From NCBI GenBank assembly GCA_964016885.1, contig CAXHJY010001637.1:1-64000 (forward strand): a stretch of DNA of 64,000 bases. The letters run 5' to 3'. This DNA is from Eledone cirrhosa (taxonomy: Eukaryota). A program made the translations under genes and the position numbers. Every line of letters starts with the position of its first letter. Position 1 is the first letter of the stretch. Below the pieces are notes generated by a model. That model saw only the letters and a program-made list of their open reading frames with translations. It ran no database searches and was not told where the DNA came from. Shown here piece by piece: positions 3,148 through 63,633 of the stretch.

Positions 3148-3780
3148 TATAAAACGAAAAATCAGTGATGCATCTGAACTCAATTTATTGTGTTACAATT
3201 GTTTCCCCAGCGGACAGCTCGTGACGCGATCCTTGTGTGAATCTGTCTGATTCTGGACCCGCAGGTTCGACGGACACTGTGTCTGTCTGTGTCTGTCTCT
3301 CTGTGTGTGTGTGTGTGTGTGTGTGTGTGTGTGTGTGTGTGTGTGTGTGTATGTGTGTGTGCGCGCGTGGATGTGTGAACTACCAAACACAGCAGTAATT
3401 CATTGAAGTGTGGCAGACATGGAACAGCAGAATGGTACCTGTGGTTAGAATTATGATGACGTAGACAACCAGCGGCCAATCACTGGATGCGCGAAGAGGA
3501 TGAAGTTTTTGAGGGTACTGTCCCATAGTAACAGACACCCCAGTGAGAGAATTTGGTCCGAAATTATTATACGTGTCCATCCAACCTGCGGGTCCAGAAT
3601 CAGACATATCCACACAATGATCGCGTCTCGAGCTTTCCGCCGGGGAAACAATTGTAATATACAATAAATTGAGTTCAGATGCATCACTGATTTTTCGGTT
3701 TATATAATATCATACTCTGTTCTGTAAGAGCATAGAGTGCTCAACCGGCATACCGCCTATGGAAGCATCTTAGCTACCAT
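3148..3780. mobile_element. Diverged fold-back insertion (~130-bp inverted arms, ~300-bp spacer) with a decayed HHR
   Basis: 3150-3278 is the imperfect inverse of 3572-3705. Arms carry GAAA-CAATTG-TA (palindromic stem III) and GTGT/ACAC stem I, but the core reads CCGUCGA / CCAUCCA. Confidence 0.7.
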
Positions 3781-4584
3781 CACACACACACACACACACA
3801 CACACACACACACGCGCGCGCACACACACACACACACACACACACACACGCACACACACACACACACACACACACACACACAAATATATATATATATATA
3901 TATATATATATATATATAATTACATAAACGGAGAAAGCTATTAGTGATACTCCGACCAATTTCCAACTCACTCAACAAACATTAGGAAATACCGGAGTAT
4001 ATTCCCAATTAATCGTTTGGGGTGCTAATTATATTGTATTGTGTAGATAATTGGCTGTATTATTTTATATGAGATATATTAAATATCTCATTTCCCAAAT
4101 GAATCGTTTCATTATAAGATTTCTACATGGTGGGTGAAATTATACCAAGTTATGTAGAAGCTTGTGTAAGATCAATGGATTCTTATTCAAGTGGGCCCTT
4201 ATAAATCTTCAGTGGGTGCCCAATAATATTAATATTAATAACTAAATCAATATCAATATTTAGCGATAATCACCATCAGTGCTAGAAGGAACTGTTAGGT
4301 TGTAAGTCCAGCAGTTCTAAAAAAAATCTCACAATGTCCCGAAAATGGGAGGAGGAGGTTACCGCCAATATATATATATGCACATACATATATTTATATG
4401 TACAAACCGTTAGGAAGTAGATCGGAGACAGATATAAAAAAACAAAGTTAAAAAAATATATATAAGACAAAAATGTATATATATATATACAAACACACAC
4501 ACATCACACGCACACGCACACACACAATAATATATATATATATATATATATATATATATATATATATATATATATATATATATA

Positions 4585-4790
4585 GCAGAGTATAAATATT
4601 TCATATAGAAATGGCTTCTACAGGACTAGAACTGTTTCGGGAGAAATCAACAGGCTTCCCGATGGTTTCTCTCGAATGAAACAGTTCTAGTCCTGTAGAA
4701 GCCATTTTTGTATTAAATATTTGTACTCTGCTTTGTATTGAGGACCTTACTTACCGTGGTTACCCCCGATAGAACCCGGGATGAACTTAT
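4585..4790. mobile_element. Short fold-back insertion in (TA)n centred on a hairpin preceding GAAAC
   Basis: 4585-4638 is the inverse of 4678-4731. The centre cgggagaaatca...tggtttctctcg is itself a hairpin. The right arm has a ~55-bp extra tail. Confidence 0.75.
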
Positions 4791-5961
4791 ATATATATAT
4801 TCTATATATATATATATATATATATATATATATATATATATATATCTTATATATATATTATATATATTATATATATATATATCTTATATATATATATATT
4901 ATATATATATAATATATATATATATATATATATATATATATATATATATATATATATATATATATATATATATATATATATATATATATATATATATATA
5001 TATTATATATATAGTATATATATATATATATATATATATATATATATATATATATATATATATATCTTATATATATATATATTATATATATAATATATAT
5101 ATATATATATTATATATATAATATATATATATATATATTATATATATAATATATATATATATATATAATATATATAATATATATATATATATTATATATA
5201 TAATATATATATATAATATATATAATATATATATATATATTATATATATTATATATATATAAATATATTATATATATAATATATATATATATATAATATA
5301 TATAATATATATATATATAATATATATATATATATATATATATTATATATATAATATATATATATTATATATATAATATATATAATATATATATTATATA
5401 TATAATATATATATATATATATAAAATATATATATATATATTATATATATAATATATATATAATATATATATATATATATATATATATATATAATTTATA
5501 TATATATATATTATATATATATAATATATATATATATATATATATATATATATATTATATATATATATATATTATATATATAATATATATATATATATAT
5601 ATTATATATATATATATATATTATATATATAATATATATATATATATATATATAATATATATATATATATATATATAATAAATATATATATATATATATA
5701 TATATTATATATATATTATATATATATATATTATATATATATTATATAAATATATATATATATATATTATATATATATATTATATATATATATATATAAT
5801 ATATATATATTATATATATATATATTATATATATATATATATTATATATATATATATATATATATATATATATTATATATATATATATTATATATATATT
5901 ATATATATATATATATATTATATATATATATATATATTAATTTATTAAAATAACAGATTAA

Positions 5962-6012
5962 AGTTTAAGCAAAGAATCGGTGCTTTCACCCTTAACAGGA
6001 TCTTCTGAAACT
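5962..6012 (-). ncRNA. Type I HHR motif, variant core CAGAAGA
   Basis: Minus strand: AGUUU-CAGAAGA-UCCU(GUUA)AGGG-U-GAAA-GCA[ccgauucuu]UGC-UU-AAACU. Stems I, II and III all pair. Confidence 0.6.
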
Positions 6013-6939
6013 AACAAAGTCAATCTGTAAACGCAGAACTGGATATTTCAAAAAAGGTTGCAACCGGAGGAAGACAGGAAGACGATAGTTTGGTTCGTGG
6101 GAACGTTCGCTGGCTAGGAACGGGAAAAAACGAATAATACGTCATTAATAGGAGCGGTGAAAAACAATTACGCGCAAAGACAGAACCACGTTTATGGTAT
6201 AAAAGAGGTCGTAGACTAACGTTCTCTTAGGTGGTGCATAGAGACGTTCTCTGGCAATGAACGAAAAAACGAAGATAATAAGTCATATGTGGGGCGTGGA
6301 GAACAATAACACGCAAAGACAAAACTACGTAAATGGTATAGCAGAAATCGTAGACTAAATTCTAACTAGGAGACCAAATGAATCTCCGCTACAGAGTTAA
6401 GAACAAAGTAAATAAATACTATACAGAGGTAATAGAAACAAATAAATACATACACGCAAACAGATACGTACATACACAAGCATACGCAAAACCTTACCAT
6501 GGGTATACAAAACCACGCACATATAAATATGTGTGTGTGTGTATGCTTGTGTACAAATAAATAAATAATTATATAAACGTATATAAGTAAATAAATACGT
6601 ATATAACAAGCGCACACGCATACCTACATATAAATAGACGGAAGTTCGGAGACGTAAGTCAACTAAAACAAGAAGTACACATATACACACACCCACCATA
6701 CGTACGAACCTGCACATTCACGCGGACGCAAAACTCCCGTATACACATAGCCAAACCCTAAATACCAGAATATGTAAAAATGATACGCTATAACAGTCAA
6801 ATATACGTACGAGAAGGTATACATACCTTCACAAAACATACGGGTAATAAATACTTACCTATGCAAATAAGTAAAGGAATAAACAAAACATATACTTAGC
6901 TCCCACATCAAGACGTAAAATATCCACGTATAGATCGTG

Positions 6940-7611
6940 CTATCCGTTAGGGTATAACGTGGGGCTGTAATACACGAAGGTTTTGTGCAATTTATGTTTA
7001 CAAGCCGAAATTGCCTCAGATTTTTTGTTTAAGATGTGGTCTGTAGCGTAGAGTATTTCCAGGGCCTCAGCGGCGCAGAGGTCACATGGTCTTTTATTTC
7101 CGTTATACGATCTAGCCCTAGCTAGGATCTCCCAGTGTAACTTATATTGGGTGTGGTTGTCTTTTAGACTCCAGATATAAGCTGAAAGTGACGTCATATT
7201 CCTTCTTAGAGAGTAACGAAAAGAATGGGTATGCATGTAAAGACGATGCTTGAAACTATTGGCGGTTAACCCTATGTAGGCCCTACGGGACGTGGGTGTT
7301 ACAACCTTACATTTGTAGACAATGTTACTAGAGAGGCATTTCCCGGATAGGGGGCAATCAGCCCGATTCCTACAATTACAGTTAGTACTAACTACAGGGT
7401 TGCACGTGTTCCTACGTCTAGGTAGTTTAGCTGAATTTGAAGCTGTGATGTTATGTGCAAGGTTAGGAGTCGTAGAGTAAGAAATTTTAATAGTATTTCT
7501 ATTAAAAATTTTACTATATTTATGTGTAGGGGGAAAATGCTTCGTAATAAGGGAAAGAAAGATCTTAGCTAATGGTGTGGCCACCTCCATATTATATGGT
7601 GGGTTAAACCA
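6940..7611 (-). pseudogene. PLE linker + GIY-YIG endonuclease, open frame, RT missing
   Basis: WFNPPY...KIFNRNTIKISYS...CNCRNRADCPLSGKCL..NIVYKC...YIGLT..FKHR...H..SF...CDLC...CKH. Confidence 0.9.
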
Positions 7612-62097: not shown

Positions 62098-62221
62098 AAT
62101 TGTTTCTACTTTTGGCACAAGGCCAGCAATTACCCAGTACATTACTGGTACTTTATTTTATCGACCCCGTAAGGATGAAAGGCAAAGTTAACCTCAGCGG
62201 GATTTGAACTCAGACCGTAAA
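62098..62221 (-). mobile_element. SINE fragment (same family as 37936)
   Basis: Aligns with 37933-38057. Confidence 0.85.
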
Positions 62222-62612
62222 ATAATGTTTTATAACGATAAAAAGAAATGTGTGATAGAAAGAATTTAGAAATAGTAGAGTTGGATGTATTCATTAACAT
62301 CAGAAAAACAACTAAAAATCCAAAAATTACATCTAAAACTTGAAGTAACTTCTTTGTTATTCAATAGAAAAAAGATTTGAAAGATTTTCTTTCTCGAATG
62401 AACAACTAATAACATTTTTATTAAAGGAAATGCAATATGTTTTAATGAAATTGAAAAGTCAAACCTGCTGAGAAATGAAACAGAATGGGGAATTATATTG
62501 AGGAAGCGTTCATAAGCCACCCATTGGGGGTAGAATAAGGTTAAACAGGTCGATGATATAATTCTTATTCCTAGAGTAGAGAAGATCTCTAACGGCGGCA
62601 GATAAAGAAGCA

Positions 62613-62677
62613 ATGTCCTTTTCAAACAACACCATAGAAGAAAATAGCACAGATGACGACACAAACAATAAAACTGA
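62613..62677 (+). CDS. Possible first coding exon of a glycosylated membrane protein (speculative)
   Basis: Acceptor-like ttcttattcctag at 62562-62574, ATG 62613, MSFSNNTIEENSTDDDTNNKT (three N-x-S/T sequons), donor GTGAGT at 62678. Confidence 0.2.
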
Positions 62678-62804
62678 GTGAGTTCTCATCTTCCCCGAAG
62701 TCACAAAACTGTTGCAAACAAAGAAGATTTCTGGTTAATACATAAAACCTGAATTATACAAGCCCCCACCCCCACCTGCCTGAAGCAGAGACTGAATAAA
62801 AAGC

Positions 62805-63277
62805 ATATGTGATGATATGATATGGTATATGATATGAAATCATATGATGTGGCATATGATATGATGTGTGATATGATGTGATATGATATGATGTGTTATA
62901 AGATGATATGATATGGTATGATATGATGTGATATGATATGATATGATGTAATATGATATGATATGATGTGATATGATGTGATGTGATATGTGATATGATA
63001 TGATATGATATGATATGATATGATATGATATGGTATGGTATGGTATGGTATGATATGATGTGATATGATATGTGATATGATATGATGTGATGTGATATGA
63101 TATGATATGATATGTGATATGATATGCTAGAATATGTGATATGATGTCATATGATATGATGTGATGTGATATGTGATATGATGTGATATGGTGTGATATG
63201 ATATGATGTGATATGTAATATTATGTGATATGATATGATATGATGTGATGAGATATGATGTTATATGATATGGTATG
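62805..63277. repeat. (ATATG)n / (ATGTG)n pentanucleotide satellite
   Basis: Directly visible. Confidence 0.95.
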
Positions 63278-63439
63278 AAATGAGTTGCGATGTCACTGAT
63301 GCTAAGATGTATCGGGTTCAATTCTAGCCCAGCAGTAGCCATTTCTATATTAAATTTGATGTTATATATATATATATATATATATATATATATATATATA
63401 TATATATAAATAAACCAATAGTGGATCTTATATATATAT

Positions 63440-63633
63440 AGGAAAAGAGTCAGGACCCCGACGTCTGAGCTCCGGGCGTTTGAACTGCTAGTTCTGAACT
63501 AGCTGTTGAAACGGCCGGAGCTCAGCCGTCGGGGTTGTGAATCTTTTTTCTATTACCCACTCTATTACCCTAAGTATCGAGTACTCTGGAACGTTATGGT
63601 CCATCTGGTTCCTTACCACACTTCTTTCGTTAT
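63440..63633. mobile_element. Diverged fold-back pair of the 14361-HHR family, inverted inside stem II
   Basis: Centre gctagttc-t-gaactagc; plus arm GAAAcggc..gagctc.agccgTCggggt; tail 63550-63633 aligns with the reverse complement of 14677-14758. Confidence 0.85.

What the first reader, a model, noticed from the sequence alone, without database searches (positions are those of the whole stretch)
3148..63633. Asymmetric 'tails-out' fold-back integration is very common: ~15 cases
Seen: inverted arms flanked by (TA)n at 3148, 4585, 8330, 10145, 14677, 15160, 21648, 22688, 28110, 34281, 47675, 49090, 53432 and 63440. Where HHRs give orientation, both 3' ends point outward into (TA)n, and one arm carries a 35-170-bp tail the other lacks. 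Established: PLEs make inverted, 5'-truncated structures. Inference: because (TA)n is self-complementary, both strands of a break can prime. Either two primings occur (twin priming, possibly on an HHR-dimerised RNA pair) or the first-strand cDNA snaps back.
Basis: partly seen in the sequence, partly recalled or inferred. Interest (0 to 1): 0.7.

Follow-up and report, generated by a model that had tools for sequence, protein, structure and literature searches.

The report
Two-ended Penelope insertions in TA repeats
These mirror-image DNA pieces are real and very common leftovers of Penelope-like jumping genes in a layout that is already described, and their exact ends (almost always one long arm paired with one short arm, each meeting the TA repeat at a few shared letters) suggest that both sides of the cut likely start copying the element's RNA at two fixed sites, rather than one copy folding back on itself.

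Summary
Observation confirmed: all 14 listed sites carry inverted arms between (TA)n tracts, with one-sided tails of about 33-167 bp. It is genome-wide: 92 of 791 inter-(TA)n islands in a 1-Mb sample of the own genome, against 0 in a mirror control. The layout (head-to-head inverted pLTR, one-sided tail, (TA)n targeting) is published for Penelope-like elements, so the pattern itself is known. What I add: in family A, 37 of 37 inverted insertions with both ends on a fixed site pair a long with a short end; either arm reaches further 5' (13 versus 13), which rules out plain snap-back for many copies; paired arms share a template lineage and often stop at the same point; short ends share 3.1 nt with (TA)n against 0.9 expected; in 3 of 5 families with a 5' hot spot it lies about 30 nt behind a TATA-like box. 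Best reading: coordinated priming from both ends of one break at two fixed RNA sites. A ribozyme-dimerised RNA pair is not supported. Long reads were not available. This scan has noted the same thing before, elsewhere in this genome and in other genomes.

The parts
3142..3780 (.). Family D inverted insertion: short arm 3142-3277 (-), spacer, long arm 3573-3710 (+) with 70-bp tail, then (CA)n to 3883
   Evidence: family copy L104 has a Hydra-type endonuclease frame upstream of its short arm on the same strand
4584..4787 (.). Family E hairpin, arms about 70 bp, 56-bp tail on the right; degenerate hammerhead cores point outward
8332..8728 (.). Family B older copy: long arm 8332-8659 (-) with about 165-bp tail, short arm 8660-8728 (+)
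10145..11338 (.). Family B: long arm 10145-10748 (-) with about 165-bp tail; short arm 10749-11338 (+), which owns the 155-bp spacer and so reaches further 5'
14679..14864 (.). Family C mini-hairpin: long arm 14679-14810 (-) with 80-bp tail, short arm 14807-14864 (+); both arms stop at the family's 5' hot spot
15160..15426 (.). Family F perfect hairpin 15293-15426 with about 135-bp tail on the left
16652..22372 (.). Family A partial tandem (16652-21646, -) ending at the long site, plus inverted copy 21648-22372 (+) ending at the short site, 60 nt apart
17115..20537 (-). Family A coding region in several frames (stops and frame changes): reverse transcriptase and C-terminal GIY-YIG with CX4CxxC linker and CCHH residues
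   Evidence: ORF list; Pfam RVT_1 E 6e-4 and GIY-YIG E 4e-3 / 2e-4, all below curated cut-offs
22172..22214 (+). Minimal hammerhead of family A in the inverted arm, pointing outward
22690..22951 (.). Family A mini insertion: long arm 22690-22874 (-), short arm to 22951 (+), 60-bp tail
28110..29492 (.). Family G: short arm 28110-28418 (-), 705-bp spacer belonging to the long arm, long arm to 29492 (+) with about 60-bp tail
33885..34638 (.). Family H: 468-bp-period partial tandem (-) with hammerhead, ending at the short site on the left; inverted copy 34460-34638 ending 72 nt further out
34089..34159 (-). Hammerhead (Rfam HH9, 31.8 bits, E 4.6e-4, below gathering score), pointing outward
47675..48119 (.). 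Family I: short arm 47675-47961 (-) including the 157-bp spacer, long arm 47960-48119 (+) with 33-38-bp tail
   Evidence: short-read contigs of runs X1 and X4 read straight through arm and spacer
48196..49411 (.). Family J: partial tandem 48196-49089 ending at the short site, inverted copy 49090-49411 with about 166-bp tail; direction inferred by analogy only
53432..54085 (.). Family K: short arm from 53432 (-) including the 354-bp spacer, long arm 53884-54085 (+) with about 100-bp tail and hammerhead core
63440..63630 (.). Diverged family C hairpin 63443-63547 with 81-bp tail

Best explanation
These are insertions of several Penelope-like retroelement families into (TA)n, in which both DNA ends of one break likely prime reverse transcription, one at a fixed inner ('short') site and one at a fixed outer ('long') site 33-170 nt further along the element's RNA. 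The stretch between the two sites is the one-sided tail (shown). The target ends likely pair with 2-5 A/U letters at these sites (shared letters shown, pairing inferred). Both cDNAs likely run towards the RNA's 5' end, often the transcription start inside the pLTR, probably on one RNA or one protein-RNA complex, and are then likely joined head to head by end joining; early stalling or trimming of either cDNA would give the variable spacers.
For: Fixed ends and strict pairing: family A has 45 inverted insertions in view, 37 with both outer ends on a fixed site, and all 37 are long+short (one is a local duplicate; the other 8 run out of view or end elsewhere); most loci were picked with a tail-containing query, so the test is on the partner end. 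Far ends predicted beforehand came out as predicted in the 6 loci where the extension reached them. Family C: 50 of 55 head-to-head pairs are clean long+short, 1 uses another outer site, 1 is short+short, 3 unclear. Unbiased 1-Mb sample, six families: 69 of 136 ends have the complementary end across the island, 1 scored as same end, 66 unassigned or solo. Direction: hammerheads point outward in 13 of 13 (strict) and 18 of 18 (relaxed) islands that have one; 34 of 34 adjacent inverted family A pairs are head to head. Either arm may be longer at the 5' end: short arm by >10 nt in 13, long arm in 13, within 10 nt in 11 of 37; in L139 and L162 the arms share no sequence at all. Shared stop point: 17 of 37 pairs stop within 20 nt (3.5 expected by permutation); 8 of 26 outside the hot spot (1.2 expected). 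Shared template lineage: paired arms differ 3.3% against 6.1% unpaired (A, 26 pairs) and 3.0% against 8.7% (C, 43 pairs), none of 20,000 permutations as low. Shared letters with (TA)n: mean 3.15 nt in 55 usable of 79 junctions against 0.93; 28 families 3.2 against 0.94; at the long site 4, 2, 3, 4, 4, 3 and 1 nt in the 7 families where the native continuation was seen. 5' hot spots of C, G and E lie about 30 nt behind a TATA-like box (chance 0.8%, 1.4%, 3.1%). In vitro a Poseidon protein, predicted to be a dimer, cuts and extends both strands and starts at two sites that bracket the tail (PMC11167929, parts 1-2 read).
Against: No biochemical or RNA data here; transcription starts are inferred from motifs, and 2 of 5 families with a hot spot (A, FAM7) have no TATA-like box there; FAM7's lies on an 8-nt palindrome, so joining preference could explain it. 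In vitro the Poseidon start site was reported as not homologous to the cut DNA (PMC11167929), against base-paired priming at least in that clade. Shared letters could partly arise later by microsatellite slippage; 11 of 55 junctions share 0-1 nt, and two high values (8, 9) are internal TA runs. Near-equal pairs in which the long arm is slightly longer fit snap-back too. Arm similarity could come from gene conversion; the own partner is the closest arm in only 10 of 26 (A) and 25 of 43 (C), and only 14 locus-private alleles are shared against 124 single-arm ones. In the window's tandem the inverted arm sides with the far pLTR at 13 and the near one at 5 of 19 sites, which is not decisive. One short+short pair with arms of different subfamilies shows that two RNAs can be used.
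Confidence: 0.7

Rival explanations
1. Snap-back: one primed cDNA from the long site folds on itself, copies itself back and joins the target at the short site.
For: 11 of 37 family A pairs stop within 10 nt of each other, several with short overlaps at the joint; arms are more alike than unpaired arms.
Against: It requires the tailed arm to contain all of the short arm. The short arm reaches further 5' in 13 of 37 family A insertions, by up to 3.8 kb, in 5 of 14 window cases clearly (10145, 34281, 47675, 49090, 53432), in L115 and L104 by 1-2 kb and in joints of independent short-read runs. Better (TA)n matches elsewhere in the pLTR are almost never used as the short end (2 odd ends).
Confidence: 0.1
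2. A hairpin intermediate made away from the target (self-priming on an antisense RNA, as proposed in PMC3846280) is cut unevenly by the endonuclease and inserted, the uneven cut making the tail.
For: Explains one long plus one short end, like arms, and joints at palindromes (FAM7 hot spot).
Against: With a fixed cut polarity the loop should always belong to the same arm; it is 13 versus 13. Pairs whose arms share no sequence (L139, L162) have no stem. In vitro start sites on sense RNA match the tail ends (PMC11167929).
Confidence: 0.08
3. Two separate RNAs, for example paired through their minimal hammerheads, are each primed by one end of the break.
For: PLE hammerheads are proposed to act as dimers (PMC4209133, passages read); a shared transcription start would give equal 5' ends without a shared molecule; one short+short pair has arms of two subfamilies.
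Against: It does not by itself explain strict long+short pairing, equal stop points away from the hot spot (8 of 26 against 1.2) or families without an intact core in their arms (C); Naiads lack canonical hammerheads yet form the same structures (PMC8557442).
Confidence: 0.1
4. Assembly or library artefact (fold-back chimeras), or palindromic units moved whole like MITEs.
For: The window is a small unplaced contig rich in (TA)n; 11 of 29 family C search hits share one joint, but the query itself contained that joint.
Against: Arms differ by 1-18% and by family-fixed tails; the structures lie on all ten large contigs sampled; unselected family C joints differ from copy to copy; short-read contigs and raw reads of other samples show both end types beside (TA)n and many different head-to-head joints; arms continue into PLE coding frames.
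Confidence: 0.02

Closest known systems
Insertion unit of endonuclease-bearing Penelope-like elements: partial tandem, inverted 5'-truncated pLTR, one-sided 30-40-bp tail (PMC8557442 fig. 2 legend and text; PMC3846280; PMC2377424)
   Same: Head-to-head inverted copies, tail at one end only, partial tandems, hammerheads in the pLTR, microsatellite targets
   Different: Tails here reach about 170 bp; the papers call the tail optional and leave its origin open (endonuclease resolution or self-priming), whereas here one long plus one short end is close to a rule and the ends share letters with the target
Poseidon element of Anolis in vitro (PMC11167929)
   Same: Two internal start sites bracketing the tail at the start of the ORF; both target strands cut and extended; AT-rich target
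   Different: Start site reported as not homologous to the target and no strand difference in site use; the genomic copies here show 2-5 shared letters and complementary use of the two sites
Hydra-clade PLEs (PMC8557442 section 11)
   Same: C-terminal GIY-YIG with CxCX5C linker, CxxC and CxH motifs, (TA)n targets: seen in window frames 6943-7626, 11490-12134, 35920-36756 and next to families B, C, D, G
   Different: Assignment by motifs only, no tree; family A instead has CX4CxxC and CCHH (Neptune/Nematis type)
L1 twin priming (recalled; listing of PMC2837659 seen)
   Same: Both ends of a break prime one RNA and give an inverted 5' part
   Different: L1 primes at the poly(A) tail plus a variable internal site and the two cDNAs do not overlap; here both sites are internal and fixed and the cDNAs usually overlap

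Membership tests
EN+ Penelope-like elements | Reverse transcriptase plus GIY-YIG endonuclease in one coding region | tested here: met
   Family A 17115-20537: RVT_1 and GIY-YIG hits, weak and below curated cut-offs; endonuclease frames upstream of arms of B, C, D, G. No coding link found for E, F, H, I, J, K
EN+ Penelope-like elements | Partial tandems forming pLTRs, with adjacent inverted 5'-truncated copy | tested here: met
   16652-22372, 33885-34638, 48196-49411; L131, L133, L134
EN+ Penelope-like elements | Tail at one end, overlapping the start of the ORF | tested here: met
   Family A tail is the native sequence after the short site and continues into the coding region; tails in 69 of 92 sampled islands at first pass, plus 12 of the 16 first called symmetric
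EN+ Penelope-like elements | Hammerhead motif in the pLTR | tested here: met
   A, H, K, FAM1, FAM7; degenerate or split in B, C, D, E, F, G, I; none found in J
EN+ Penelope-like elements | RT phylogeny within the PLE clade | not tested
   No reference PLE proteins were held; no tree built
Hydra clade | CxCX5C linker, no CCHH, CxxC and CxH near the conserved E and N; (TA)n target | tested here: met
   Read directly from frames against PMC8557442 section 11; RT motifs (DKT, RWK) not examined
Neptune/Nematis type (family A) | CX2-5CxxC linker and CCHH in the endonuclease | tested here: inconclusive
   Both motifs present but they do not separate Neptune from Nematis; no tree
MITE / TA-targeting DNA transposon | Symmetric terminal inverted repeats of fixed structure | tested here: not met
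   Only 2 of 92 sampled islands stay symmetric on inspection, 2 unclear; inner joints vary

The most novel reading that the evidence does not exclude
Two-ended priming is the normal integration route of these PLEs: one protein dimer holds one RNA, assigns one target end to each of two fixed start sites by a few base pairs, and copies the same RNA twice by strand displacement; the mass of tiny hairpins are run-offs at the cap of the ordinary pLTR-initiated mRNA, so their centres map transcription starts.
Probability: 0.4. Interest if true: 0.7.

Novelty: new member of a known kind. Interest (0 to 1): 0.48.

Why it matters
How PLEs build their inverted ends and tail is named as an open question in PMC8557442, and an in vitro system now exists (PMC11167929). 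The counts here turn it into sharp predictions: complementary use of two start sites by the two target strands, one template for both arms, short pairing with the target, and run-off at the RNA's 5' end. At about 92 per Mb (bootstrap 71-114; some 200,000-340,000 if the sample stands for the 3-Gb assembly) these hairpins are also a large class of repeats that could be mistaken for MITEs or microRNA hairpins (the Rfam scan gave such a false match on 22785-22914). The layout itself is not news.

Tried and rejected
The generic inverted-repeat finder was swamped by (TA)n. Rfam gave 253 matches, nearly all microRNA models on simple repeats; only one hammerhead among the 150 rows shown, below its gathering score. 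A genome search with an arm-only family A query returned nothing because its words are too common, so family A loci come from a tail-containing query plus the random sample. In one search I first assigned the 10145 spacer to the wrong arm; other copies showed that it is native upstream sequence of the short arm. Four family A extensions were fetched in the wrong direction (L010, L022, L027, L029), so their far ends remain unseen. An earlier count said 35 head-to-head pairs; the count is 34. Read ends piling at 14807 in the RAD-seq runs were set aside as a likely restriction site. The six tail-to-tail neighbours have (TA)n behind both ends and were read as separate insertions. No RNA holder was listed, which says nothing on expression. 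No long-read run was listed. The near/far pLTR test in the window (13 to 5) was inconclusive. Target-site duplications cannot be read inside (TA)n. Literature searches found no paper stating the long+short rule or shared letters with the target for PLEs; most subscription papers, including Evgen'ev and Arkhipova 2005 and Arkhipova 2006, and all supplements were not seen and may hold such statements.
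Full report
Observation. The window is 32% G+C and about a fifth (TA)n. After masking, inverted arms appear at all 14 listed coordinates, with arm identities of 82-100% and one-sided tails of about 33-167 bp. The 14 belong to 11 sequence families (A twice, B twice, C twice, D-K). The window is contig C1664 of a 3.0-Gb assembly.

How common. I fetched 100 evenly spaced 10-kb stretches of contigs C1-C10. Of 791 islands between (TA)n tracts, 92 have an inverted arm within 6 nt of a tract; the mirror-repeat control gave 0. 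First pass: 69 with tails of 20-200 bp, 7 longer, 16 symmetric. Of the 16, 12 prove asymmetric beyond an internal TA run, 2 stay symmetric, 2 are unclear (with for one). Density 92 per Mb (bootstrap 71-114), rising with local (TA)n content (rho 0.57). In six families, 69 of 136 ends with a tract in view have the complementary end across the island; several of the 66 unassigned ones visibly carry a diverged or very short partner, so half is a lower bound.

What they are. Family A (16652-22372) is a PLE with RT and C-terminal GIY-YIG (weak Pfam hits), a minimal hammerhead, a partial tandem and an inverted copy. Its short end and long end lie 60 nt apart at the start of the coding region. Families B, C, D and G lie downstream of endonuclease frames on the same strand in other loci; the window's three non-A endonuclease frames carry the CxCX5C, CxxC and CxH motifs described for the Hydra clade. 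H is a 468-bp hammerhead unit in tandem. Hammerheads point outward in 13 of 13 and 18 of 18 islands that have one. Direction is unproven for 49090 and weak for 47675 and 15160.

Artefact check. Long reads were not available. Short-read contigs and raw reads from other samples show both end types beside (TA)n and many different head-to-head joints for families I and C. This supports the class, not each single locus.

Pairing rule. Of 45 inverted family A insertions in view, 37 have both outer ends on a fixed site, and all are long+short (one a local duplicate); 8 run out of view or end elsewhere. Most came from a tail-containing query, so the partner end is the test; six far ends predicted in advance were confirmed. 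Family C: 50 of 55 clean long+short, 1 with another outer site, 1 short+short with arms of two subfamilies, 3 unclear; 29 of its loci were query-selected.

Twin priming or snap-back. Snap-back needs the tailed arm to contain the other. In family A the short arm reaches more than 10 nt further 5' in 13 insertions, the long arm in 13, and 11 are within 10 nt; two pairs share no sequence. In the window the short arm is clearly longer in 5 cases, the long arm in 5, and 4 are near equal. So both arms were templated separately in many copies. Near-equal pairs remain open to snap-back, but four of them have the short arm longer by 2-16 nt and several have untemplated letters at the joint.

One template. 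Paired arms differ about half to a third as much as unpaired arms (A 3.3% against 6.1%, C 3.0% against 8.7%). They stop within 20 nt of each other in 17 of 37 (3.5 expected), and in 8 of 26 outside the hot spot (1.2 expected). This fits two run-offs at one RNA's 5' end. Gene conversion and later loss of hairpin centres are not excluded, and private shared alleles are few (14 against 124).

Shared letters. At 55 usable of 79 junctions, element and (TA)n share 3.15 nt on average against 0.93 at random positions of the same elements; by family 3.2 against 0.94 in 28 families; no resample of 20,000 reached either value. 24 junctions were dropped for mismatches next to the tract. Long sites seen in 7 families share 1-4 nt.

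5' hot spots. Inner ends cluster: C 71 of 110 within 10 nt, G 8 of 10, E 13 of 22, FAM7 7 of 14, A about 20 of 74 within 3734-3761. In C, G and E a TATA-like box starts about 30 nt upstream (chance 0.8-3.1% each); A has none but carries motifs that I recall as NRF1- and YY1-like; FAM7's hot spot is a palindrome. Penelope's promoter is known to lie in the pLTR (PMC2377424, passages). I infer run-off at the transcription start; no RNA data test it.

Comparison with print. PMC8557442 (passages and section 11) describes the inverted 5'-truncated copy, the one-sided tail and (TA)n bias, and calls the mechanism open. PMC3846280 (passages) notes head-to-head as the usual direction and proposes self-priming. 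PMC11167929 (parts 1-2 of 4) shows cutting and extension of both strands, two start sites bracketing the tail, and no need for hammerhead cleavage. PMC4209133 (passages) is the source of the dimer idea. PMC9977147 and bioRxiv 10.64898/2026.07.22.740005 (passages) added nothing on the mechanism.

Verdict. Real, common, and a known PLE layout. The value lies in quantitative rules that can be tested in an existing in vitro system. Other notes of this scan reached similar readings; I had written mine down before reading them, and they are not independent evidence.

Noticed in passing
window 6943-7626 (-), 11490-12134 (+), 35920-36756 (-): Three 5'-truncated endonuclease frames with the Hydra-clade CxCX5C linker; no Pfam hit at E 0.01.
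   Followed up: partly
window 23477-26137 and 29869-32526: Two 98% identical copies of an AP-endonuclease/RT LINE-like element (931-aa frame in the first, which has a further frame upstream); the second is cut by (TA)n at its 5' side.
   Followed up: no
window 38828-44836 (-): Another LINE-like element in several broken frames, with an internal 232-bp direct repeat (39090-39321 / 39703-39934).
   Followed up: no
window 46445-46492 and 59603-59700: Palindromes of the form (CA)n-(TA)n-(TG)n; the second mirrors an interruption of the CA run on both sides of the TA centre.
   Followed up: no
window 1-1080 and 1081-1250: A 138-bp island is repeated exactly (1-138, 1081-1218) with its (TA)n tract: a local tandem duplication or an assembly effect at the contig start.
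   Followed up: no
L175:1-130: Rare short+short family C pair whose arms belong to different subfamilies; elsewhere in L175 a family C arm is joined to a family G arm.
   Followed up: partly
families B and C and one further family (L210, L184, L085, L090): Native sequence just behind the long site shares a short GCTCC motif and could encode a similar N-terminal peptide; in B the same 9 letters follow both sites.
   Followed up: partly
window 4584-4787 and family E copies: The short end of family E wanders over several AT-rich positions within about 30 nt, unlike the single site of A and C.
   Followed up: partly
window 19770-20070: Asparagine/threonine-rich low-complexity insert inside the family A coding region, like the N-rich inserts described for rotifer Penelopes (PMC3846280).
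   Followed up: no
window 7611-7667, 37930-38119, 55418-55519, 62095-62221: Fragments of another dispersed repeat, SINE-like by look, not tied to (TA)n.
   Followed up: no
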